Assembly: GCA_037305845.1 (NCBI GenBank)
Contig: CP147778.1
Coordinates: forward strand, 704,001 to 768,000
Direction of reading: 5' to 3'
Length of the DNA stretch: 64,000 nucleotides
From: Candidatus Freyarchaeum deiterrae
Lineage (GTDB): Archaea > Asgardarchaeota > Jordiarchaeia > Jordiarchaeales > Jordiarchaeaceae
Shown here: positions 4,573 through 15,387 of the stretch, one piece after another
How the letters are laid out: every line of letters starts with the position of its first letter
Numbering within the stretch: position 1 is the stretch's first letter
Translations under genes and position numbers: made by a program
The notes under the pieces: generated by a model
What the model saw: the letters and a program-made list of their open reading frames with translations, nothing else
The model's database searches: none
What the model was told of the DNA's origin: nothing

Positions 4573-5604
4573 CTACCGGTTAGGCTCAATAATCACTTTT
4601 ATGGAATCCTCAGCCTTAGCCACAAGCTTAAAGCCCAAACCCGCCTCAGCCAAACCCAAACGATGAGTAATCATATCATGAACATTCAAACCACAACCCC
4701 GAAGCAGCTCCAGCGAAGTTGAAAGATCACTGGGACCCGCACCATAAGACGTAGTCAAAGTAACCTCATTCCGCCACATATCATTAAAGTTCACCGGCAC
4801 ATTAACCGATGGCTCAGGCACCGCGAAAAACAGAATCGTACCACCACGGTCAACCGACTGCAAAGCAGTAACAGGAGCCGCCGGAGCACCAGTACAAACA
4901 ATCACCTTATCCACAAGCCGGCCACCATTCAGCTCCTTAACAAGCCCGGGAACATCCCTCTCCTTCCCAGCATCAATAACCGCAGCCGCACCAAAATGCT
5001 TCGCCGCATCCAAACGAAACCGACTAACATCACTAGCAAAAACACTAGCCGCACCAAGCAGCCGAGCCAACTGAATATGCAAAAGCCCCGAAATACCACT
5101 CCCAATCACAAAAACCGAGTCACCCGGCTTAACCCCAGCATTCCTCTGCCCACGCAAACAACAAGCCAAAGGCTCAATAAAAGTACCATCCTCAAAACTC
5201 ATATCATCAGGCAACAAGTAAATCCCACGATCAACCTGCAAACCAGGAACACGAACAAACTCCGCAAAACCCCCCGGATCAAAATTCGTAGTATGCAAAG
5301 TCTCACAAGCAGTATGATGACCCGTCAAACAGTAACGACAAGTATTACAAGGCACATGGTGAGAAACAAAAGCACGGTCCCCAACCCGGAACTTCTTAAC
5401 ACCAGAACCAAGCTCAACAAACTCACCAGTCATCTCATGACCCAGAACCCGGGGAGCCTTCTTAATCCGATACCACTCCATAACATCGCTCCCACAAATA
5501 CCACAAGCCATAGCCTTAACCAGAATCTCACCAGCACCGATTTTCGGCTTAGGCAACTCCTCCAAACGAACATCACTATTATTATAATACATAGCAACAC
5601 GCAT
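4573..5604 (-). CDS. Zn-dependent medium-chain alcohol/polyol dehydrogenase
   Basis: CGICGSD, GHE, structural Zn CNTCRYC...C, GSGISG Rossmann motif. Confidence 0.9.
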   Translation of the reverse strand: MRVAMYYNNSDVRLEELPKPKIGAGEILVKAMACGICGSDVMEWYRIKKAPRVLGHEMTGEFVELGSGVKKFRVGDRAFVSHHVPCNTCRYCLTGHHTACETLHTTNFDPGGFAEFVRVPGLQVDRGIYLLPDDMSFEDGTFIEPLACCLRGQRNAGVKPGDSVFVIGSGISGLLHIQLARLLGAASVFASDVSRFRLDAAKHFGAAAVIDAGKERDVPGLVKELNGGRLVDKVIVCTGAPAAPVTALQSVDRGGTILFFAVPEPSVNVPVNFNDMWRNEVTLTTSYGAGPSDLSTSLELLRGCGLNVHDMITHRLGLAEAGLGFKLVAKAEDSIKVIIEPNR

Positions 5605-5690
5605 AACAAAACCCCACAAACCAAATCATAACACAACACAAAAAGAAAAATTATATATTGGCGATAAAAGATTAAAGGCAATCGCTCACA

Positions 5691-6485
5691 CTAATCATTC
5701 TTCTGACCCTTAAGACTATTAAACAGCTCAAGAGCCTCGTCCGCAGTATAATTCTCCTGAACAACTGAGCGAATAGCACGAATCATAGGCACACTAAATT
5801 CGGACTGAAAAATGTTCCTTCCGAAATCAACGCCTATAGCGCCCGCCTGAATAGCATCATAGGATAACTTTATTGCGTCAGACTCAGGTATCTTTTTGCC
5901 TCCCGCAATAACTACGGGAACAGGACAGCCATCCACAACTTTTTCAAAGTCTTCACAGTAGTAGGTTTTAACTATGTGAGCCCCAAGCTCCGCGGCGATA
6001 CGACTAGCCAAACCCAAATAACGGGCGTCACGAGCCATCTCCCTGCCAACCGCAGTAACAGCCAGAACCGGCATACCGTACTCCTCGCCCTCATTAACGA
6101 GATGGGACAGGTTTACCAGTGTTTGCTTCTCGTGCGGTGAACCCACGTATACAGAAAGAGCCATCGCGCTAGCGTTCAGTCGAATAGCTTCCCTAACCGA
6201 AGTAGTAATCTCCTCATCTGACAGGTCTTCCTTAAGTATACTAATTCCACCAGACACCCTGAGCACAACCGGAGTCTGCATACCAGTATCCATAGTATTA
6301 CGAAGCATGCCCCGAGCCAACATCAATGCATCAGCATAAGGAATCAAAGGCCAAATAGTCTCCCGCGGCTTAATTAAGCCCTGAATGGCCCCCTGAAAAT
6401 AAGCGTGGTCTACTGCCAGCATTACTGTGTGTCCTGTTTTTGGGTTTATTATTCTTTGCAGTCGGTTTTTCATTCCCCAATCCAT
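5691..6485 (-). CDS. lsrF: LsrF-like class I aldolase/thiolase (DhnA family)
   Basis: MDWGMKNRL, MLAVDH, AAELGAHIVKTYY, VIAGGKK, GRNIFQS. Confidence 0.85.
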   Translation of the reverse strand: MDWGMKNRLQRIINPKTGHTVMLAVDHAYFQGAIQGLIKPRETIWPLIPYADALMLARGMLRNTMDTGMQTPVVLRVSGGISILKEDLSDEEITTSVREAIRLNASAMALSVYVGSPHEKQTLVNLSHLVNEGEEYGMPVLAVTAVGREMARDARYLGLASRIAAELGAHIVKTYYCEDFEKVVDGCPVPVVIAGGKKIPESDAIKLSYDAIQAGAIGVDFGRNIFQSEFSVPMIRAIRSVVQENYTADEALELFNSLKGQKND

Positions 6486-6551
6486 TTTTCGAATCACCTA
6501 TTATTGTTGTTTTGCGTGACTTGTTTTGCTTTTGTAAGTTTCAAATTTATT

Positions 6552-6588
6552 TTCTTTGGATTGTTTAAAAGGTTTCCGCTATTTGTTT
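6552..6588. repeat. Imperfect direct repeat, copy 1 (3' end of the large gene); copy 2 at 13352-13388
   Basis: ttctttggattgtttaaaaggtttccgctatttgttt vs ttctttgaaatgtttaaaagatttccgctatttattt, 33/37 identical. Confidence 0.7.
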
Positions 6589-9500
6589 TTGAAGTGAGGG
6601 TTTCAAGTGCTCCCATTTTTCTATTATAGTCTTTTGTAGTGCAGGAGTTAAGGTCCATAAAATTACATTTCTATTGGGATAGAGTCTTATTTCTCCTCTT
6701 ATTCTTGAAGACATCCCCTTCACCTTGACGGTTTTTCCCTCTATCAGGATTTCAATTTCCTCCTCCGAATATTGCTTTTGAAGCTTGAAAATTTCATCTG
6801 GCGGATTTACGAATCTCTCTAGTTTCTTGGGTAGTTTCTTGACAGGTATTATGTGGCATATTTCGCTGTGAACTATTCTCTTAGTTCCGATTTTTTTTAG
6901 GGTTTCAACTTCTTCTTCGTTTAGGTTTATTGGCTTAACAGGGATTGACCTCCATACGGTCGCACGGTTCATGTACATCAGTTCCTTGAATCCTGGGAAT
7001 CCTCCAAGAATTTTGTGTAACTTTTCGGTATATTCTACAGTCGGAACGAGCTCCTTTAATATAGCTATGTGGTCAGAATAAAGGTTAATTCCATGTGCTT
7101 TCATTTGTAAGTCATTATCTTCAGGATGTATGCCGTTGTCTTCTAACAGTTTTGACATTATCTTTTTCTCATGTTTTAGGACTTTGATTTCTTTGTTCTC
7201 TACTTTGGTTTGTATTTCCTTGTAATCTTTGAGTTTTCCTATTGCTATGTATTTTCCGAGGGTTTCTCCTTTTATTCCTTTTATGGTTGTTCCTTTTATT
7301 TGATTATTTAGTGTGTTTCTGTGTTCTTCTAGTTCTGGTGCTCTTGCTGTGAGCATTATTGATAATTGTGAATGTTGTTTAATGCTCCCTTCGTCTGCTA
7401 TCATTGCTTTTGTAGCTGCTTTTCGTTCTTGCGGACTTTCTATGATGGATTCCGGAAATTCTTGGTTTAGCACTGTTTTTTCTCCGGGTATCAATCCTAT
7501 TCCAAGGAAGCTGATTGCAGGTAGGTTGCTATTGATATAAAGGTAATTGAAGCCGCTTTCTTTTTTCCCGATGGAAGGCGTTATTCCAAAAACATTTTTC
7601 ATCTTTTTTTCCATTGACTCCATGAAATCGGGTCTCATGTTAAAGTATGCTATTTCATATCCTCTTCTTTTCTCGCGGAATGTTCCATCTCCGAAAACAG
7701 TGGACATTACCACGTAGGCTGCATCTTCGCCTTTCATTTCTATAGTTAGGTTGGGCTTGTTTTTCTTCTCCATTGGTCCGACTTTTTCTACGTATTCCGT
7801 GAGATCTGCAAGCTTATCGGCTGCTCCTGAGTACATTGTGAGGGTTAGTAAGTTTATCAGAAGGAGTGAGTCATTTTTCTTGTTTCTTTCCAATCGATTT
7901 AGTGTATGAGATGACATATCAAGGATTTTTTCCGCCTTACCACGGGTTCCTGCTTTTTTGATGCTTTTTTCTGTTATGTAGGTGAGTAGGTCTTTTCCTT
8001 CTTTGAACTCTTTTGTCCTATCCACGGTAACGCGTGTGTTTGGCAGGCTGAAGAACCAAGCGGTTGTGTTGGGGCGGAATGTTTCCCCTGTTTGTTTTAC
8101 TTCTCGGGTTATACTTCCGTCTTTTCCTTTTCTATAGATGAATGTTAGTAGTGTTCTTTTTCCCTCTTTTGGCTCGCTGATTTCTACTTTTTCAATTATG
8201 GCGTCGGTTCCGTCTTTTTCTTTTATTATCTCTCTTTTATAATCTTTGAATCTTAATTTTGTACGGTCGTGGAGGCTGTCGTTTATCTTGATGCCTAGTG
8301 TTTCTTCGATTTTCTCAAGAACGCCTATAGAAATTTTCCTTTCGTCTGAAATGTAATGCTTGACATCTGTGATACTTGTTTTAACGTCTTTGGCTAGTTC
8401 GGAAGTGTAGTTGAAACCGTATTTTTTCCAAGCCTCTTGACGTATTCTGCGTATATCTTTTCGGGGAAGAGAAACTTTTTCCTCTTTTGACATGTTGTTC
8501 TGGTCAAGTTCTCTTATTTCTGATGGCTCTTTTCCGAGGAATGCACATATTTCAATTAGGGCTACTGTGTCGACGTATTTCTTGTTTGGGATTTCCATTA
8601 TCTCTGCTCCCCTTGAGATTGCAGCTCCCGCTTCTACTAGAATAGCAGCGAACTTCTCAGGGCTGATTTCTTCACTTTTTAATTTGTTTAGTAGTTCTTC
8701 ATGAAGTTTTTTTAGGTCGTCGAGTTGAATGCGTACTGCTACATCAGAACGACTGTACCATTCTCCGGTGGCTATGTCTACAGTTGGGCTTCGCCATTGG
8801 GTGACTATATTCTGGTCTGCTTCAATTTCTAGCGTGTGGCAAATCTTAAGATATATGTCTACTGGTACTTTCTTGCCTGTTCTGAGGTAGCTTTCCAATT
8901 TTTCGCTTTCCAAGTTTTTAGATGCGCCCTTCTTCTCAAGTTCTTCGTACAGCTTTTCGGTTGTTCCTAGAGTTTCGGTTTTATAGAGTTTCTCGTTTAT
9001 TTTTTCTAGCTGTTTCTCGGGAATGTTGATCAGTTCGTGTAATTCGAGAGGTTCAAGCACAGATAATCCTTCAGGAGTTTTAGTGTACTCGGCACCAAGA
9101 AGCTGCAGAAGTTCCTCTGTTTTTCTTAGCTCTAAAGTGTAGGGGTCTGAAACTGTTTTCGTTTCTGTGGTTGGTGTTGTTTCCCTGTATGGCTTTTTGA
9201 GGTATCTTGCTATGGTTTCCAAACAGGTGGCGTCTATGTATTCTTCCTCGTGGAATTGTTGTAGGGTTTCATTGCAGGCTTGCAGTACATCGTTATTTCC
9301 CTCTAATCTACTCTTGTTCCTTGCTTCAATCACCTTGCTTAGAACATCTCTTGAAGGGAGGGAAAAACTGAATACTTCGCCTTGAATGAGAACCGTTGAT
9401 TTCTCGTACCTGAGAGTTTCTAGCCATCTCTCTTCTTTCTCAGGTGTTTCAAGAGTGGCTTCTGTGTTTAGTTCTCTTGGATATTCTCTTTGAGAAATCC

Positions 9501-10338
9501 GTTTTTCTTCTACTTTAGGCGTGAGCTCCTCGTCACGCTCCGCCGCCTTCTCGCCGAACGGTTCGCTTCCCTTATGTTTTTTACTTCCTTCTGAATTTCT
9601 ATCTTTTGCTTTCCGCTCCAATAACTTGTTCAACTGCTTCCGAGTATCGCTCCCCTCTTCTCTTCCTTCTCCCTCATGTGAAAACTCCTTCTGCTTATCC
9701 CCTTTCTCACTCTGAGCATTCTTTATTTCTTCATCAGTTTTTCGAACTTTTCTCTCCTCTGCTTCTCCCGGTTCTCTCTTCTCATGTTTTCTGGTCTCTT
9801 CAGACTCTTTTTCGGTTTCTGTTTCTCGGCTTCTGCCGCATTCTTTTTTGGTTTTATCCTTCGGAGCATCTCCTAAGTTTTCTGTTTTCTTGCTAATTTC
9901 CCCTTCAGTCCCTGACTCTTTATGCTTCTCTTCTCTACGTTGCTCTTCTTCGCGTTGCTCTCTCTTGACGCTGGTCTCCTTGAATTTGGATTCCTGATTT
10001 AATATTTCATTCTCTCTCAGATCTCGAGATTCCTCTGTGATGGATGATTTCTCACCGGTATCCTGATTCTCATTTTTTTCTAAGGCTCTTTGGATAATGG
10101 CTCTATACTTTTCATTTACCTCTCTTATGTCCTCCCTAAGCAGATTCTTTAGTTTCTCTAGTTCCTCATGCCTCTTAAACAGCTCCCTCCACCTTTCACG
10201 CTCCCGACTCTCATCGTATTCGTTTTCATCGTGCTCATCGAATTCGTCTTCTTCGTCGAACTCATCTTCTTCATCTTCTTCGTCGGATTCATCATTTTCC
10301 CTTTCGTTAAACTCCACACAAACCCTCCTAGTAATCAA
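6565..10338 (-). CDS. Large protein: acidic low-complexity N-terminus, several XRE-like HTH repeats, LAGLIDADG-like domain
   Basis: D/E-rich start; HTH-like ELAKDVKTSITDVKHYIS and KAEKILDMSSHTLNRLE; paired motifs MSTVFGDGT and KAMIADEGSI. Start may be GTG 10317 after AGGAGG. Confidence 0.65.
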   Translation of the reverse strand: MITRRVCVEFNERENDESDEEDEEDEFDEEDEFDEHDENEYDESRERERWRELFKRHEELEKLKNLLREDIREVNEKYRAIIQRALEKNENQDTGEKSSITEESRDLRENEILNQESKFKETSVKREQREEEQRREEKHKESGTEGEISKKTENLGDAPKDKTKKECGRSRETETEKESEETRKHEKREPGEAEERKVRKTDEEIKNAQSEKGDKQKEFSHEGEGREEGSDTRKQLNKLLERKAKDRNSEGSKKHKGSEPFGEKAAERDEELTPKVEEKRISQREYPRELNTEATLETPEKEERWLETLRYEKSTVLIQGEVFSFSLPSRDVLSKVIEARNKSRLEGNNDVLQACNETLQQFHEEEYIDATCLETIARYLKKPYRETTPTTETKTVSDPYTLELRKTEELLQLLGAEYTKTPEGLSVLEPLELHELINIPEKQLEKINEKLYKTETLGTTEKLYEELEKKGASKNLESEKLESYLRTGKKVPVDIYLKICHTLEIEADQNIVTQWRSPTVDIATGEWYSRSDVAVRIQLDDLKKLHEELLNKLKSEEISPEKFAAILVEAGAAISRGAEIMEIPNKKYVDTVALIEICAFLGKEPSEIRELDQNNMSKEEKVSLPRKDIRRIRQEAWKKYGFNYTSELAKDVKTSITDVKHYISDERKISIGVLEKIEETLGIKINDSLHDRTKLRFKDYKREIIKEKDGTDAIIEKVEISEPKEGKRTLLTFIYRKGKDGSITREVKQTGETFRPNTTAWFFSLPNTRVTVDRTKEFKEGKDLLTYITEKSIKKAGTRGKAEKILDMSSHTLNRLERNKKNDSLLLINLLTLTMYSGAADKLADLTEYVEKVGPMEKKNKPNLTIEMKGEDAAYVVMSTVFGDGTFREKRRGYEIAYFNMRPDFMESMEKKMKNVFGITPSIGKKESGFNYLYINSNLPAISFLGIGLIPGEKTVLNQEFPESIIESPQERKAATKAMIADEGSIKQHSQLSIMLTARAPELEEHRNTLNNQIKGTTIKGIKGETLGKYIAIGKLKDYKEIQTKVENKEIKVLKHEKKIMSKLLEDNGIHPEDNDLQMKAHGINLYSDHIAILKELVPTVEYTEKLHKILGGFPGFKELMYMNRATVWRSIPVKPINLNEEEVETLKKIGTKRIVHSEICHIIPVKKLPKKLERFVNPPDEIFKLQKQYSEEEIEILIEGKTVKVKGMSSRIRGEIRLYPNRNVILWTLTPALQKTIIEKWEHLKPSLQKQIAETF

Positions 10339-10602
10339 GTACCGCTCTAACAGCTCATCCTATACCATGTTCTTTGTTGGAGACAATCACTAACACCCTC
10401 TTCCTGCTCCTAACCACCAAAGCGTTGTAGTGTAATATAGTTGCGAAGAGCTGAGGGCCCTATTTATTTCTTGAAGAGAGTATTTTAATTCCACGAAAAG
10501 TAAAAGAAACTAACTCTTTTTAGAAGATTAGCAAAAGAGATAAAATCATACCAAAAGAAAAGAAATTTAATAAATTAAGAATCGGATATCATATATTTAT
10601 TA

Positions 10603-11205
10603 TTGAGGTTTTCAATGAAAAAGAACGAATCGTTAACAGATTATTTTTTGTCCAAGGTTGCTGTCATAGGTCCTATCAGTCTAATGGGGATTGTAATCAA
10701 CTCTAATAGTACTGACCTATCTATTTTTCACGGTTTGGGTAGATGTGATCTAAAGCGGATAGAAAATTCTAACGATTTAAATGAACTATCAAAATATTAT
10801 ATGGTATGGCATACACAAAATGGAGTTGAACCAACAAATTGGTGGGTTTCTGGATCGGCTAATTGGTTATTCAGTGAATACGTTACGGGTTACATTAGTG
10901 GTTCTATTATTAATCGTGATATAAACTCCATCTTTGAGTCATTCAAGAGGGGATTAACCGCAAATGTAGAAATTCTTGTAGCATTGGATGAAACTATAAA
11001 TAAGGGAATTATCGTTGATGGGACGAAACGTGCCGTAGCGCTTTGTCGTATCAAAAACGAAGATGAAAGCGCTTTGGATTTTTTGTTCAATTCTGTCTAT
11101 CAGATTAACATATTGAAGTTTAGTTCTAAATATTGTAAGATTCTTTTTCCTTGTGACTTTTTAAGGTTAAGTGTTGAAATGAATGAGACAAGTGAATCTC
11201 TCTAA
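10603..11205 (+). CDS. Hypothetical protein with ParB/Srx-like motif
   Basis: IIVDGTKRAVAL resembles the ParB GxxR motif; AT-rich. Confidence 0.45.
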   Translation: MRFSMKKNESLTDYFLSKVAVIGPISLMGIVINSNSTDLSIFHGLGRCDLKRIENSNDLNELSKYYMVWHTQNGVEPTNWWVSGSANWLFSEYVTGYISGSIINRDINSIFESFKRGLTANVEILVALDETINKGIIVDGTKRAVALCRIKNEDESALDFLFNSVYQINILKFSSKYCKILFPCDFLRLSVEMNETSESL

Positions 11206-11530
11206 CTACCTCTGGTTAACTTCCTTAGCTCCATTATAAAGCCTAAATGGGGATAGTAATTTACTATTATAGAGAAAAAGCCCCAAAATTTTTCGTCTGT
11301 ACAATAAAGATTTCAAAACAATAACATAAAAACAGTAGAAATATGCCCCAACAATTCGTTTTTTTGGGATTTCTAATACTCCTAGATTGGCTTTGTATAT
11401 ACACTTATAAATGGGAGAACCTTTTACACAGAATGGTACTATGTCATTCTAAGCGAAGTCAAGAAAGATGAATTTGAGACCAAGAGCTAAGCAATGTGGA
11501 ATGCTCTCCTGAAAAAACTCCAAAAGTCCA

Positions 11531-12025
11531 TTATCTTTTTATTGGGATTGTTCTTGAGAAAGGTGCTTCTCTATCTGGGAACAATGTGAGGTTATATTCT
11601 TTCTCGTAGAAATCCAAAAATAACCCAAAATCATACATGTATGAGCCATGCCGTTTCCGGGTCATTAGTTCTAGTTTCTTCTTATCATAGATATCTGATG
11701 TTGATTTTTTTCTCCTTACTTTCAGTTCAATAACCGCGAGATTATCGCTGTCCAAGCCTCGCTGGTGTATTACTATGTCTGGATAAATCCGGTCAGTATT
11801 TCGTCTTCCACCATATTTGCTTATGCCTGGCAATATCTTGATCTCGCTGCCATGGCGGTTATATTCGCAGTCAACATTATAATCCTCGAACAATGGCTCA
11901 AGATACAATGCGACCCGATGCCCAAGTGTCCTTTCGCCTACTTTCAACTCTATTAGCTTGAAATCCTTTTTATAAAAAGTATTTACTGCCGACTTAATTT
12001 TTATCAAAAATGTCTCCTTGTCCAT
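11531..12025 (-). CDS. PD-(D/E)XK nuclease-fold protein
   Basis: VDCEYNR, IYPDIVIH, AVIELK. Confidence 0.7.
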   Translation of the reverse strand: MDKETFLIKIKSAVNTFYKKDFKLIELKVGERTLGHRVALYLEPLFEDYNVDCEYNRHGSEIKILPGISKYGGRRNTDRIYPDIVIHQRGLDSDNLAVIELKVRRKKSTSDIYDKKKLELMTRKRHGSYMYDFGLFLDFYEKEYNLTLFPDREAPFSRTIPIKR

Positions 12026-12241
12026 ATTCTCACGCTTTAATTATCAAAATCAACTGATATAAGCATGACTGCACATATCTCAAAAAGGACGGAAATAAAT
12101 TATAATTAATCTATGATTTAAACAAAAAACAACATCAAAAATACCAATACTATGTTAGGATCATCTACACCTCCTCGTCCCCTTCAAGTGTGAAAAAACA
12201 TGAAGCGAAAGTCATTTCTACAACTTTTTAATTAGTTTATT

Positions 12242-13219
12242 TCAAGTCTTTGACCAGATTTTACAATTTCCAACCCTTGCTGTATCCACTATGATATTCC
12301 AAGACAAATCTACAAGGTATCTGTAATCCGGTTTATAGCTCGCCTTTCTAGAGATTACTATCACTTCGGTGGACATGTTATCAAAAGCGTATCCATAAAA
12401 CCCGCCATGATGAGAAGCTTCAACAAGAAAGTAAAGCTCATTGCCAAAATTCAAATAGTTATTCAAAATTGTTTTATCAACGTCTCCAGTAAAAAGAAAA
12501 TTAGTGTGGTCATCTCTTATAACAAGAGACGCTCTGTTTGCAAGGTTTTTAAATTTCATTTCTATTTCAACTAAATATTCTTGTACTTTTGGTTTTACAT
12601 CTTTATCTTTTGATATTTCTTCGAGGGAAGCATCAGATTCTTTGGATTCTCTACCGAAAGCCACGCTTAAATAAGCATACAATTTATCAAACTCTTCTAA
12701 TTGTTTCTCACTTAGTTTCTTTTTTATTTCATCTATTTTATTGAGAAATGTCTCAACACTTCTTCTATTAATTTTGTCAATGATACTATAATCTGGCCAC
12801 AGAACCTCCCAACTCCTGCCTACAGCATTAAAAGAATCACCTTTCTCCTTTGGTTTAATATTCTTCCCTCTAGTAAGAATCATCGGTATTAAGTAGTATT
12901 CTTGATACCCTGATAGCGTTGCTAGCGCCAAAAATTCAAGTATTGCATCAGCAGTAGAGCTTCCTGAAGGCAAACTAGGTAGGTAAATATTATCGAAGAA
13001 ATTTTCAGGTAGAGTCCCTAACAAATTGTAATGATCAAAATGATAATGTGTTATTGCCAAATCTCGACTTTTTGACTTCTCTATCTCGCACTTGATGATA
13101 TTAGTAAAATTGTTTACCTTATTATTTTCAGACCCGCAATCCAATATAAAAGGGGATGTTTCTTCATCAAAAATGCCTACACAATTTCCGTGGCCCATAT
13201 CGAGAACGATTATTTCCAT
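12242..13219 (-). CDS. ComEC/Rec2-type metallo-beta-lactamase-fold hydrolase (putative nuclease)
   Basis: LDMGHGN, THYHFDH, LFTGD, SHHG. Confidence 0.8.
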   Translation of the reverse strand: MEIIVLDMGHGNCVGIFDEETSPFILDCGSENNKVNNFTNIIKCEIEKSKSRDLAITHYHFDHYNLLGTLPENFFDNIYLPSLPSGSSTADAILEFLALATLSGYQEYYLIPMILTRGKNIKPKEKGDSFNAVGRSWEVLWPDYSIIDKINRRSVETFLNKIDEIKKKLSEKQLEEFDKLYAYLSVAFGRESKESDASLEEISKDKDVKPKVQEYLVEIEMKFKNLANRASLVIRDDHTNFLFTGDVDKTILNNYLNFGNELYFLVEASHHGGFYGYAFDNMSTEVIVISRKASYKPDYRYLVDLSWNIIVDTARVGNCKIWSKT

Positions 13220-13351
13220 AAATTTTAAACTGCTAATTTATTTAATTAATTTTAGCGCCTGTTTTCTATTCCAGTAGGAGGCAAAAAACAAAAAGTGAGA
13301 GCAAGAATTTAACCTCACTTTCTTTTTCTGCTTGAAACCATTTTAGGTTTA

Positions 13352-13388
13352 TTCTTTGAAATGTTTAAAAGATTTCCGCTATTTATTT
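13352..13388. repeat. Imperfect direct repeat, copy 2 (relic of the large gene's 3' end)
   Basis: 33/37 identity to 6552-6588. Confidence 0.7.
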
Positions 13389-13452
13389 ATTGGAAGTAAT
13401 GAGCTTTCATTTTTGTTGTTGGATTTTAAATTATTGGTCATTATTGCATTTT

Positions 13453-15387
13453 TTAAAGAGATTTAGAAACAATTTGATTAACTATTGATTCTAACGTACT
13501 GCTTGATTTCCCTTGTTTCTTAGCTTCTAGAATCATTTGTTGGATAACTTGAGAATTCTTAATTGCATGTTTCTCTTGACCCATTCCAAAATTTTTGCAG
13601 CACTCACCAAGTATATTATTGTATAATTCCTCTCCTATTTCCTCTTTCAAAGTGTCTGTTAGCGTCCTTTTGAAACAGGCAAATTCGTCTGTTACCTTAG
13701 CAGGCCAGTCCTCTATTTCCTGATTAAACAGTCTTAACAATAGACGATTTTCTTGTGGTTTGGCATCTTTGCCCTCATAATCGCTATCCCAGATTGCATA
13801 AATAGGAATTTGCAAAAGTCTAAAGATAGCGATTGGTCTATCAAGACAGGTTTTGCCATTGCAAGGTATGACGGAAATACCCTTACTTTCTAATTCAATC
13901 CCCATAGCAGTAGCTGTTCCGATTATTGCAGCTCTATCTTCTTCTCCTTCGACCAGAACTATAAAATCTGAAAAGAATCCTTCGTTCAGCCAGGGTGTCA
14001 TAATCGTTCTGAGACGCGGTCTTAGAGTTTTTCCAGTATACGTTCCTTCAGGTTTATCACAAGCGTTTTCAATAATTTTTGCAACTTCATCAAGATTGGT
14101 ATAAAAAATTTTTGTTTGTTTGGGTAAACCCTTTTCTATTTTCTCTTTTCTGAGTACTCTAACCTTTTCGAAGTTCTCTAAATTTACCAATAATGGGGAA
14201 TGTGTGCTATAAATTACTTGAGTTCTCTTTACTAAATCATGAATACCTTCTTCCGCTAATTTCATAAAAACTTTAGACAAATGGCGTTGTCTATTAGGGT
14301 GCTGATATAATTCAGGCTCTTCAATACCGATGATAAGATTCGGTGTCCCAGGCAATAATTCATTCTCCGATTCTACTTTGGTTGGCGATTTTATTATAGA
14401 GAGATATTGTAACATGGTTAAAATTGTAGCCCTTTGTAGGCCGTGGCCGGTGTGACCTACTGGTGAAGGATAGTCATCTTCTACGAGCATGAGGTTAGTT
14501 ACGGGAGTTTGAATATCAAATCCAAGTGCTTCACCTAAAATCAGGCTGAAACGGTTACCGGGAGCATATAGTTGAAGTATGTTACTAAGACCATTCTCTA
14601 AATTTTGCAATTCTGGTAAATTTGAAGGATTAAAAATTTCTTTGTAGCGTTTTTGAGTATCTTCCTTAAATACTGTTATTTCTTTACGTTGTGATAGCGC
14701 GATTCCCCAAACTAAATTCATAATTTCAGAAAGCGCTGTTCCTCTACCTTCGGTTGTATCTTCAGTTGCATCACGGACAGCTGGGATAAATAGAAACTTA
14801 GTGTATTTTTCAAGATGCGCTTCCCCTACTTCTTTGAAACCGAAAAATTGTCCGTCATCTCTTTGACGGTTACATTGGTCGGGATGAGATTGTTCCCAAT
14901 CACTTAGTGTTCTTTCAGCATTAGATTTATTAGTGTAAGGCGGAAAATTAGGATATTTATTCGTACTAAGCAGTTTATTGTATTCTACTTTAAGGGCGGG
15001 TCCACTGGCTACCCGAAAATTTTGAAACTCGGAATTTTGGAGGCTTGTCCCATAATATTTTTGGCTGCCCTTACCTATTGGCCATTTCAACTCCTTTTCT
15101 ACAGTCAGCTCTTCTCCTTCGATGTATTTTTGGAAGAGTTTCTTTTCTTCGTCCGTTAAACCTGTGAAAGTAACTGTTATCAAAATGTTCTGTGAGGTGT
15201 CTCGTGCATAGAAATCATCTTCGATGTATCTTGCGTTTGGACTATAAAATATCTCAAGCGCCCGTAGAAAAGAGGATTTGCCAGAACCATTGGGTCCGAC
15301 AAGAACAGTCAAATTTTCGCAAAGGAGGTTTTCATTTTTAACAGAACGAAAATTCCTAACTCTAATGGATTTAATAATCATATCCAA
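13453..15387 (-). CDS. OLD-family ATP-dependent nuclease (ABC ATPase + TOPRIM; GajA-like)
   Basis: GPNGSGKS, GHGLQR, IEEPELYQHP, STHSP; TOPRIM LVEGEED and WDSD. Confidence 0.9.
   Translation of the reverse strand: MDMIIKSIRVRNFRSVKNENLLCENLTVLVGPNGSGKSSFLRALEIFYSPNARYIEDDFYARDTSQNILITVTFTGLTDEEKKLFQKYIEGEELTVEKELKWPIGKGSQKYYGTSLQNSEFQNFRVASGPALKVEYNKLLSTNKYPNFPPYTNKSNAERTLSDWEQSHPDQCNRQRDDGQFFGFKEVGEAHLEKYTKFLFIPAVRDATEDTTEGRGTALSEIMNLVWGIALSQRKEITVFKEDTQKRYKEIFNPSNLPELQNLENGLSNILQLYAPGNRFSLILGEALGFDIQTPVTNLMLVEDDYPSPVGHTGHGLQRATILTMLQYLSIIKSPTKVESENELLPGTPNLIIGIEEPELYQHPNRQRHLSKVFMKLAEEGIHDLVKRTQVIYSTHSPLLVNLENFEKVRVLRKEKIEKGLPKQTKIFYTNLDEVAKIIENACDKPEGTYTGKTLRPRLRTIMTPWLNEGFFSDFIVLVEGEEDRAAIIGTATAMGIELESKGISVIPCNGKTCLDRPIAIFRLLQIPIYAIWDSDYEGKDAKPQENRLLLRLFNQEIEDWPAKVTDEFACFKRTLTDTLKEEIGEELYNNILGECCKNFGMGQEKHAIKNSQVIQQMILEAKKQGKSSSTLESIVNQIVSKSL

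What the first reader, a model, noticed from the sequence alone, without database searches (positions are those of the whole stretch)
6565..10338. Giant stand-alone protein: acidic disordered arm, 4-5 XRE-like HTH repeats and a LAGLIDADG pair, with no visible intein
Seen: about 300 aa of D/E/K low complexity (EDEEDEFDEEDEFDEH); repeats ending in L..I...L (CLETIARYL, IYLKICHTL, ALIEICAFL, VLEKIEETL); two motifs VFGDGT and IADEGS about 100 aa apart. Established: HTH plus LAGLIDADG is typical intein cargo. I see no Hint splice motifs or host gene. Inference: a free-standing selfish nuclease or a domesticated WhiA-like DNA-binding protein, sitting at the edge of the defence island.
Basis: partly seen in the sequence, partly recalled or inferred. 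Interest (0 to 1): 0.7.

Follow-up and report, generated by a model that had tools for sequence, protein, structure and literature searches.

The report
Giant stand-alone multi-HTH LAGLIDADG nuclease gene
A 1,250-residue protein of a wetland Asgard archaeon joins a disordered acidic arm and five helix-turn-helix DNA-binding modules to a homing-endonuclease-type (LAGLIDADG) core that keeps its metal-binding residues; it lies in no intein or intron and comes and goes among close relatives, so it is probably an oversized selfish or conflict-type DNA-cutting gene, not a housekeeping regulator.

Summary
Window 6565-10338 (-) is one 1257-codon frame (likely GTG start at codon 8). It has an acidic/basic low-complexity arm (about residues 1-305). 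Four XRE-like HTH modules and one weaker three-helix module follow. Then comes a double-motif LAGLIDADG core (862-1130; VIA Z 13-16 to intein, intron and WhiA LAGLIDADG domains) and an unassigned conserved C-terminal domain. No Hint domain, intron RNA or host gene was found.

Profile comparison (E 6e-44) places HTH5 plus the core in a wider, undescribed archaeal family of stand-alone XRE-HTH+LAGLIDADG_3 proteins (DPANN; multicopy in other Asgard genomes). The two metal-binding acids (D884, E983) are invariant in the 21 sequences compared, unlike in WhiA.

The giant subfamily is tiny (12 hits among 1.8 billion representatives). It normally forms an operon with a ~390-aa partner gene, which is missing here. 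Within the genus it is disrupted in one genome, a deletion scar in another and not found in two. It occupies at least two loci.

Best reading: a dispensable, probably active, HTH-tethered free-standing LAGLIDADG nuclease. It is a new variant of a known kind. This scan has noted similar archaeal genes on other DNA. Whether it cuts DNA, and what it targets, was not tested here.

The parts
6565..10338 (-). Whole open frame, 1257 codons from TTG. The probable start is the GTG at codon 8 (window 10317), which has AGGAGG 6 nt upstream.
   Evidence: A public record of this protein starts at residue 8.
9424..10338 (-). N-terminal acidic/basic low-complexity arm (residues 1-305), including the D/E block at 13-45. 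It is lineage-specific: relatives carry arms of about 130 to 1180 residues with other content.
   Evidence: Composition. pLDDT is 26-28 for residues 300-330. Arms of homologues differ.
9187..9360 (-). Helical module 1 (residues 327-384). A three-helix bundle with only a weak HTH assignment.
   Evidence: Z 6.4-6.6, to designed or generic helical bundles only.
8788..9024 (-). XRE-like HTH module 2 (residues 439-517).
   Evidence: VIA Z 6.7 to HipB. The module-4 profile hits it at iE 1.7e-5.
8512..8727 (-). XRE-like HTH module 3 (residues 538-609).
   Evidence: VIA Z 6.3-6.5.
8260..8475 (-). XRE-type HTH module 4 (residues 622-693), the clearest of the five.
   Evidence: VIA Z 7.5-8.5 to P22 c2, 434 repressor, C.AhdI and CapH. 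Pfam HTH_3 E 1.2e-3 here, and 4.6e-11 and 8e-6 at the aligned place in homologues.
8029..8241 (-). Beta-hairpin region (residues 700-770). Low model confidence, no fold match, conserved within the giant subfamily.
7783..8028 (-). XRE-like HTH module 5 (residues 771-852), directly before the nuclease core. It is homologous to the N-terminal HTH of the short stand-alone family.
   Evidence: VIA Z 5-5.9. hhalign to A5.
6949..7755 (-). Single-chain double-motif LAGLIDADG core (residues 862-1130) with a helical/hairpin insertion in the second half.
   Evidence: pLDDT mostly 81-95 over this stretch. VIA Z 15.9 (7qsu endonuclease domain), 14.0 (PI-PfuI), 13.9 (WhiA, I-Tsp061I), 13.1 (I-DmoI). Foldseek. 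hhalign E 6.4e-44 to a LAGLIDADG_3-bearing family.
7681..7698 (-). LAGLIDADG motif 1 end, VFGDGT. D884 is the putative metal-binding residue.
   Evidence: D invariant in 21 sequences.
7384..7401 (-). LAGLIDADG motif 2 end, IADEGS. E983 is the putative metal-binding residue.
   Evidence: E invariant in 21 sequences.
6568..6948 (-). C-terminal domain (residues 1131-1257). It is the most conserved part of the giant subfamily (LPEELK..NPP..QK.YSE.EVEIL.EGKPVKVKGMPSRI.GE) and is absent from the short family. Fold unassigned.
   Evidence: Only Z about 4 matches. Atlas scores <=0.81.
6552..6588 (.). Copy 1 of a 37-nt direct repeat: the last 8 codons, the stop and 13 nt downstream of the giant gene.
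13352..13388 (.). Copy 2 of the 37-nt repeat (33/37 identical, Q codon changed to stop), between the MBL-fold and OLD genes. These are the only two copies in the 3.58-Mb genome.

Best explanation
The gene encodes a free-standing, probably catalytically competent, single-chain LAGLIDADG endonuclease. It lies in no intein or intron.

Shown here: the architecture, the fold, conservation of the two acidic residues, and the patchy, decaying distribution.

Inferred mechanism:
- The LAGLIDADG saddle binds about 20 bp and cuts across the minor groove, using D884 and E983 to hold the metal ions.
- The chain of four or five XRE-type HTH modules in front of it reads flanking DNA. This lengthens the target or tethers the enzyme to it.
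- The conserved C-terminal domain probably contacts DNA or the usual ~390-aa operon partner.
- The acidic arm may mask the DNA-binding surfaces until the protein is engaged.

Evolutionary behaviour: it acts as a dispensable, fast-evolving accessory gene of the selfish or conflict type. It is an oversized member of an archaeal family of stand-alone HTH-LAGLIDADG genes. It sits at borders of synteny blocks and is gained, rearranged, broken and deleted among close relatives. In this genome it is inverted relative to its DeoC neighbour and has lost its partner gene.
For: Fold: the model of residues 760-1257 has pLDDT 87.5. It matches LAGLIDADG domains of TliVMA intein, PI-PfuI, I-Tsp061I and I-DmoI at VIA Z 13-16 with 166-187 aligned residues, and at Foldseek E 3e-6 to 1e-3.

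Family: hhalign probability 100, E 6.4e-44 over 341 columns to a stand-alone XRE-HTH+LAGLIDADG_3 family. That family's profile hits only this gene in the own genome (E 2e-10).

Catalytic acids: the D of motif 1 and the E of motif 2 are invariant in all 21 sequences compared, covering the giant subfamily, Asgard paralogues and DPANN proteins. These residues are essential in I-DmoI and lost in WhiA (PMC3384342).

HTH array.

Not in an intron or intein.

Accessory behaviour:
- 12 hits among 1.8 billion representatives.
- Single copy here.
- G001's copy has an in-frame stop and a frameshift.
- G003 keeps only a ~60-codon scar left by two deletions.
- Not found in G004 or G005, which are 95-96% complete.
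- Beside DeoC in three genomes but beside ahcY in two metagenome contigs.
- Identity is incongruent with neighbours: G002 has DeoC 87% but giant 44%; G001 has DeoC 76% but giant 59%.
- A unique 37-nt copy of the gene's own tail lies 6.8 kb away.
Against: - No cleavage, target site or transfer event was shown.
- The conserved basic active-site residues could not be assigned.
- The gene has genome-average GC (0.402 against 0.407).
- Contigs of two studies bridge it without variants, and none skips it. The published analysis of what appears to be this genome found even coverage and no integrated mobile elements (PMC11529989).
- A 1250-residue protein with an operon partner is far more elaborate than known homing endonucleases.
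- In another Asgard family, related paralogues are syntenic between species and about as conserved as their neighbours. That suggests host functions for at least part of the wider family.
- No precise empty-site/filled-site pair with defined borders was recovered.
Confidence: 0.5

Rival explanations
1. Domesticated sequence-specific DNA-binding protein that no longer cuts, working as a regulator or chromosome organiser in the manner of WhiA. The LAGLIDADG core would serve as a binding or interaction scaffold and the HTH array would read promoters.
For: WhiA scores as high as true nucleases in the fold search (Z 13.9). Five HTH modules resemble a transcription factor. Related paralogues in another Asgard family keep their positions between species and are as conserved as their neighbours. 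GC is genome-average and no population variation was seen.
Against: Both metal-binding acids are invariant across very distant relatives, whereas WhiA has lost them. The domain order is the reverse of WhiA. The gene is disrupted, scarred or not found in four of five sister genomes, which is not how a core regulator behaves.
Confidence: 0.2
2. Component of an undescribed defence or conflict system: a nuclease effector aimed by an HTH array, normally working with the ~390-aa partner and sometimes a HerA/FtsK-like ATPase. It would then sit in the defence island for that reason.
For: It lies at the edge of an island holding PD-Lambda-3_A-like, MBL, OLD and Hachiman genes. The conserved two-gene operon with the partner is seen in four other loci. 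A co-oriented, overlapping HerA/FtsK-like ATPase gene lies upstream in contig L052. In G002 the DeoC-upstream site instead holds a 539-aa ORF that I read by eye as methyltransferase-like, not family-tested. That fits a hot spot for variable genes.
Against: No PADLOC family matches the giant protein or its partner. In relatives the gene lies beside DeoC or ahcY with no defence genes identified next to it. The partner was not found in this genome. The island genes have lower GC than the giant gene, so they probably arrived separately.
Confidence: 0.2
3. A decaying remnant: an orphaned copy that lost its partner after local rearrangement and is now functionless although still open.
For: The partner was not found in the closed genome. 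The gene is inverted relative to DeoC compared with G001. There is a tail relic 6.8 kb away. Sister copies are broken or deleted.
Against: A 3.7-kb frame with no stop, all conserved motifs intact and a Shine-Dalgarno-like start is unlikely to persist without selection, except in the purine-rich arm.
Confidence: 0.1

Closest known systems
Archaeal single-chain LAGLIDADG homing endonucleases (I-DmoI, I-Tsp061I) and the endonuclease domains of archaeal inteins (TliVMA intein, PI-PfuI)
   Same: [quoted passage not shown] The acidic pair matches I-DmoI D20/E117 by motif position.
   Different: About 15% sequence identity. Not in an rRNA intron or an intein. Four to six times larger: it adds five HTH modules, a beta region, a C-terminal domain, a disordered arm and an operon partner. 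No activity or target is known.
Stand-alone XRE-HTH + LAGLIDADG_3 proteins of DPANN and Asgard archaea (alignment A5 and its Asgard paralogues). I found no paper describing them.
   Same: True sequence homologues (hhalign E 6e-44) over HTH5 plus the whole LAGLIDADG core. Same HTH-then-nuclease order, same invariant acids. Some Asgard members also carry extra N-terminal HTH_3 domains.
   Different: Those proteins are 380-900 residues and lack the conserved C-terminal domain, the beta region and the partner gene. In one Asgard family they occur as 3-8 paralogues per genome in stable positions.
WhiA/DUF199 (bacterial sporulation and cell-division regulator)
   Same: A LAGLIDADG scaffold joined to an HTH in a chromosomal, non-intron, non-intein gene. 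Fold match Z 11.6-13.9.
   Different: WhiA has the LAGLIDADG domain first and one HTH last, has lost the catalytic acids and bases, and is universally conserved in Gram-positive bacteria. This protein has the reverse order, keeps the acids and is patchy.
HO endonuclease of yeast
   Same: A free-standing LAGLIDADG nuclease with an added DNA-binding array.
   Different: HO keeps a degenerate Hint domain and uses zinc fingers. Here no Hint-like part was detected and the added array is made of HTH modules. No programmed host role is indicated.

Membership tests
LAGLIDADG endonuclease superfamily (single-chain, double-motif) | [quoted passage not shown] | tested here: met
   AlphaFold model with pLDDT 87.5. 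VIA Z 13-16, rmsd 2.5-2.8 A over 163-187 residues, to seven solved LAGLIDADG proteins. Foldseek.
LAGLIDADG endonuclease superfamily (single-chain, double-motif) | Acidic residue at the end of each LAGLIDADG helix (metal binding) | tested here: met
   D884 in GDG and E983 in DEG are invariant in 21 homologues. Their role is taken from I-DmoI D20/E117 (PMC3384342). Placement is by motif, not by a residue-level structural superposition.
LAGLIDADG endonuclease superfamily (single-chain, double-motif) | Match to a curated LAGLIDADG sequence model | tested here: inconclusive
   The protein itself hits no Pfam LAGLIDADG model at E<=1. Homologues give weak hits (P0005 LAGLIDADG_2 at 5.7e-4, P0014 LAGLIDADG_3 at 2.4e-3). 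The link is through hhalign to family A5, of which 18 of 23 members hit PF14528 (best 5e-8).
LAGLIDADG endonuclease superfamily (single-chain, double-motif) | Site-specific DNA cleavage | not testable with these tools
   Needs biochemistry.
Homing endonuclease gene (mobile by homing) | Residence in a self-splicing intron or intein, or a filled/empty allele pair with the target at the empty site | tested here: inconclusive
   No Rfam intron within 5000-14500 and no Hint domain. Presence, scar and absence occur at the DeoC site among relatives, and a second locus lies beside ahcY. Exact insertion borders could not be defined.
Intein (Hint domain with nested endonuclease) | Hint fold flanking the endonuclease, splice-junction residues and a host extein | tested here: not met
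   No Hint or intein Pfam family at E<=1. All intein matches align only to the endonuclease domains (7qsu 141-324, 1dq3 136-334). No Hint match appeared for residues 300-790, though the beta region 700-770 was modelled poorly. The frame has no flanking host protein.
WhiA/DUF199 | N-terminal LAGLIDADG domain lacking the catalytic acids, then one C-terminal HTH; conserved in Gram-positive bacteria | tested here: not met
   Domain order is reversed, the acids are retained and the distribution is patchy and archaeal. WhiA features are taken from PMC3384342.
XRE/Cro-C1 type HTH (Pfam HTH_3 clan) | Five-helix Cro/C1-like DNA-binding domain | tested here: met
   Module 4 has VIA Z 7.5-8.5 to phage repressors and C-proteins. 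HTH_3 scores 19.3 bits here (cut-off 23) but 43 and 26 bits at the aligned place in P0007 and P0002. Modules 2, 3 and 5 score Z 5-6.7. Module 1 is weak.
Known anti-virus defence systems (PADLOC-DB 2.0) | Match to a model of a known or candidate defence protein | tested here: not met
   No family matches the giant protein or its partner at E<=0.01.

The most novel reading that the evidence does not exclude
The giant protein, its conserved ~390-aa partner and, in some genomes, an upstream HerA/FtsK-like DNA translocase may form an undescribed integrase-free mobile or conflict module of Asgard archaea. In it, a modular and evolvable array of HTH units aims a LAGLIDADG nuclease at long DNA targets. 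Cutting near its own locus would create the variable hot spots (DeoC-upstream, ahcY-downstream) where defence genes then collect.
Probability: 0.12. Interest if true: 0.7.

Novelty: new variant of a known kind. Interest (0 to 1): 0.45.

Why it matters
LAGLIDADG enzymes are the classic long-target nucleases used for genome engineering. In archaea they are known mostly from rRNA introns and inteins.

This gene shows a stand-alone, chromosomal form in which the nuclease core is preceded by a chain of HTH readers. It belongs to a wider archaeal family that I did not find described in the papers searched. If the protein is active, the HTH array would be a natural way to extend or retarget a LAGLIDADG site. 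The family would also be a further class of selfish or conflict genes shaping variable regions of Asgard genomes, where few mobile elements have been identified.

The value is moderate. The fold class is well known, this scan has met similar archaeal genes before, and no activity or target is shown here.

Tried and rejected
- Intein or Hint remnant: no Pfam hit and no structural match outside the endonuclease domain.
- Intron residence: no Rfam family within 5000-14500 at E<=0.1, and no tRNA in the window.
- Direct sequence link to solved structures: phmmer and a family profile against the PDB found no LAGLIDADG entry. Only the fold search did.
- C-terminal domain identity: only Z about 4 matches to TnpB-like proteins, Atlas feature scores <=0.81 and a 24-residue DUF3945 hit at E 0.01-0.02. 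Left unassigned.
- Viral origin: no relatives in IMG/VR for the giant family or the short family. BFVD gave only generic LAGLIDADG and intein matches.
- Defence family: none in PADLOC, and only a weak HTH-level hit in PHROGs.
- Paralogues in the own genome: none with the protein, with PF14528, with the A5 profile or with G002's second giant ORF.
- Partner gene in the own genome: not found.
- 'Tail-swapping' of the neighbouring DeoC gene (a lead from earlier scan notes): no DeoC, ADH, partner or ORF-V relics anywhere in 6498-30000.
- Excision or polymorphism of the 6.8-kb stretch between the 37-nt repeats: no joint in Logan contigs of four runs. Contigs drop rare variants, so this is weak.
- Expression: no RNA holder listed, so there is no evidence either way.
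- The MBL-fold gene block in relatives, as a way to explain the tail relic: not found in 12 relatives.
Genomic context came from the genome search, the fetch from genomes and the search for related loci instead.
- Literature: no paper found on HTH-LAGLIDADG proteins of Asgard or DPANN archaea. The paper on what appears to be this genome does not mention LAGLIDADG.


Full report
**What is there**

Window 6565..10338 (-) is a single open frame of 1257 codons. It is the only copy in a closed 3.58-Mb genome. The best homologue is named Candidatus Freyarchaeota, and related contigs are Freyarchaeota and Candidatus Jordarchaeum MAGs. A published complete Freyarchaeia genome from wetland soil is described with OLD upstream of hamAB. 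That matches this window, and the paper reports even coverage and no integrated mobile elements (PMC11529989). The likely start is the GTG at codon 8, preceded by AGGAGG. A public record of the protein starts at that residue.

**Architecture**

- Residues 1 to about 305 are acidic/basic low complexity.
- I modelled residues 300-790 (pLDDT 64) and 760-1257 (pLDDT 87.5), using alignments of the few homologues.
- VIA-align against 48,161 chains gives XRE/Cro-type HTH matches for 622-693 (Z 7.5-8.5), 439-517 (Z 6.7), 538-609 (Z 6.3-6.5) and 771-852 (Z 5-5.9). Residues 327-384 match only generic helical bundles.
- A profile of module 4 finds module 2 at iE 1.7e-5. Pfam HTH_3 is below cut-off here but above it at the aligned position of two homologues.
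- Residues 862-1130 are a single-chain, double-motif LAGLIDADG domain. Matches: Z 15.9 to the endonuclease domain of the TliVMA intein, 14.0 to PI-PfuI, 13.9 to WhiA and to I-Tsp061I, and 13.1 to I-DmoI. Foldseek agrees.
- VFGDGT (881-886) and IADEGS (980-985) end the two LAGLIDADG helices.
- Residues 1131-1257 form a well-predicted alpha/beta domain with no convincing match. It is the most conserved part of the subfamily.
- A beta-hairpin stretch at 700-770 is poorly modelled.

**No intein, no intron**

No Hint or intein family appears at E<=1. Every intein in the fold lists aligns only through its endonuclease domain. No Rfam family lies within 5000-14500.

**Relatives**

An exhaustive HMMER search of 1.84 billion representatives with residues 301-1257 finds 12 proteins, several of them fragments. 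The full-length ones are 787-1993 residues. They share the core from about residue 500 onward but have quite different N-terminal arms; P0007, for example, carries four extra HTH_23-type repeats.

The weakest hit, P0014 (383 aa), opened a larger family of 370-460-residue stand-alone proteins, some recorded from Nanoarchaeota MAGs. Eighteen of 23 members hit Pfam LAGLIDADG_3. Profile-profile comparison of the two alignments gives probability 100 and E 6.4e-44 over 341 columns. The aligned stretch runs from the strand before HTH5 to the end of the nuclease core.

The same profile finds full-length matches in other Asgard genomes. One family with closed 2.8-Mb genomes has up to 6-8 paralogues per genome. 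These are 431-893 residues, and some carry additional HTH_3 domains. Several of them are syntenic between species and about as conserved as their neighbours.

So the giant protein is an elaborated member of an archaeal HTH-then-LAGLIDADG family. Across all 21 sequences I aligned, the D of motif 1 and the E of motif 2 are invariant. These are the metal-binding residues of I-DmoI, and WhiA has lost them (PMC3384342). I could not assign the auxiliary basic residues.

**Genomic behaviour**

In four other loci (G001, G002 and two metagenome contigs) the gene is followed immediately by a ~390-aa gene. That partner is 47-49% identical among them and was not found in this genome. In contig L052 a HerA/FtsK-like ATPase gene and a 170-codon gene precede it with overlapping ends.

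Within the genus:
- G001 has the gene divergent from DeoC, with an in-frame stop and a frameshift.
- G003 keeps only a ~60-codon scar at the same place, explained by two deletions relative to G001.
- G005 has DeoC directly followed by the next conserved gene.
- G004's contig ends 179 nt beyond DeoC.
- In G002 the DeoC-upstream site holds a 539-aa ORF that I read by eye as methyltransferase-like, not family-tested. G002's giant gene lies on another contig, and it has a second, very divergent 1849-codon relative beside PolD.
- L052 and L053 carry the gene-partner pair beside ahcY-Lrp-MetRS. In the own genome that block is 75-86% identical in DNA but has unrelated sequence on the far side of ahcY.

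Protein identities are incongruent with the neighbours:

| Genome | DeoC identity | Giant-gene identity |
|---|---|---|
| G002 | 87% | 44% |
| G001 | 76% | 59% |

In this window the gene is co-oriented with DeoC, which is inverted relative to G001. Other markers of the ancestral locus are relocated (orf1370) or absent (ORF-V).

A 37-nt stretch covering the last eight codons, the stop and 13 nt downstream recurs once, at 13352-13388, with 33/37 identity and a stop in place of Q. These are the only two copies in the genome. I have no firm explanation. It could be the trace of a former second copy, or of the recombination that moved the gene.

GC is genome-average (0.402 against 0.407), while the island genes are 0.34-0.38. 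Logan contigs from two studies bridge DeoC, the gene and the island without differences, and none skips the gene.

**Interpretation**

The fold and architecture are secure. The invariant acidic pair, together with the pattern of disruption, scars, absence, multiple loci and incongruent divergence, favours a dispensable and probably active nuclease of the selfish or conflict kind over a WhiA-like regulator.

Four points argue for caution:
- its size and its partner gene;
- the stable paralogues in another Asgard family;
- the lack of compositional or population signals of recent mobility;
- the absence of defined insertion borders.

Defence-system membership is possible but unsupported. There is no PADLOC match, and relatives carry the gene without any identified defence neighbours. 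I put the nuclease/selfish reading at 0.5.

**Earlier notes of this scan**

The scan has recorded similar stand-alone multi-HTH LAGLIDADG genes in other archaeal genomes. These include one beside ahcY and one paired with a translocase ATPase. Both are echoed here by L052/L053, which I found independently through homology. The 'replacement tail for the neighbour' idea from those notes was tested on DeoC in this window and not seen.

**Limits**

No RNA data were available.

Noticed in passing
window 6552-6588 and 13352-13388: A 37-nt direct repeat (33/37 identical) spans the giant gene's last 8 codons, its stop and 13 nt downstream. The second copy lies between the MBL-fold and OLD genes and has a stop in place of Q. 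These are the only two copies in the 3.58-Mb genome, and no contig joins across them. The origin is unexplained.
   Followed up: partly
window 11531-12025 (-) and 12242-13219 (-): The 164-aa ORF matches PADLOC PD-Lambda-3_A (E 7e-19). The adjacent MBL-fold gene weakly matches LmuA (E 4e-6). Together they are a possible PD-Lambda-3-like pair in an archaeal island. The MBL-fold gene was not found in 12 relatives.
   Followed up: partly
own genome G000:C1:1875988-1877640 (outside the window); L052:12443-13814; L053:5638-6913: The S-adenosylhomocysteine hydrolase gene (ahcY) reads in several frames. The break after '...NDTPTKWET' recurs in the own genome and in two related contigs, and another break near '...GHPS' is seen in the own genome. 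The own genome has one further frame change near 'TTTGI'. Possible causes are small introns, recoding or shared decay.
   Followed up: no
L009:7648-8838 (+), L004:306-1481 (-), L052:10671-11867 (+), L053:4203-5351 (+): A conserved ~390-aa gene directly follows the giant gene in four loci (47-49% identity). It has no Pfam family and looks like a chain of short helical 'TEEEA..LL' modules. It was not found in the window's genome.
   Followed up: partly
L052:1604-5204 (+): A 1033-aa HerA/FtsK-like ATPase gene and a 170-codon gene precede the giant homologue P0002, with overlapping stops and starts. This suggests a four-gene operon in that genome.
   Followed up: no
L050:679-6228 (+) (G002 contig C112): A second, very divergent 1849-codon ORF with an HTH-LAGLIDADG-like region (29% identity to P0002 over 190 residues) lies near the PolD large-subunit gene. 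It has no Pfam hit and no counterpart in the window's genome.
   Followed up: partly
L041-L049 (G021 and G031, closed 2.8-Mb Asgard genomes): These genomes hold three to eight paralogous stand-alone HTH-LAGLIDADG_3 genes each (431-893 aa, 44-70% identical). Some are syntenic between the two genomes, with conserved flanks.
   Followed up: partly
L023:184-1803 (-) (G002, upstream of DeoC): In G002 the site beside DeoC holds a 539-aa ORF that I read by eye as DNA-methyltransferase-like (not family-tested) instead of the giant gene. The DeoC-upstream position therefore looks like a hot spot for variable genes in this genus.
   Followed up: no
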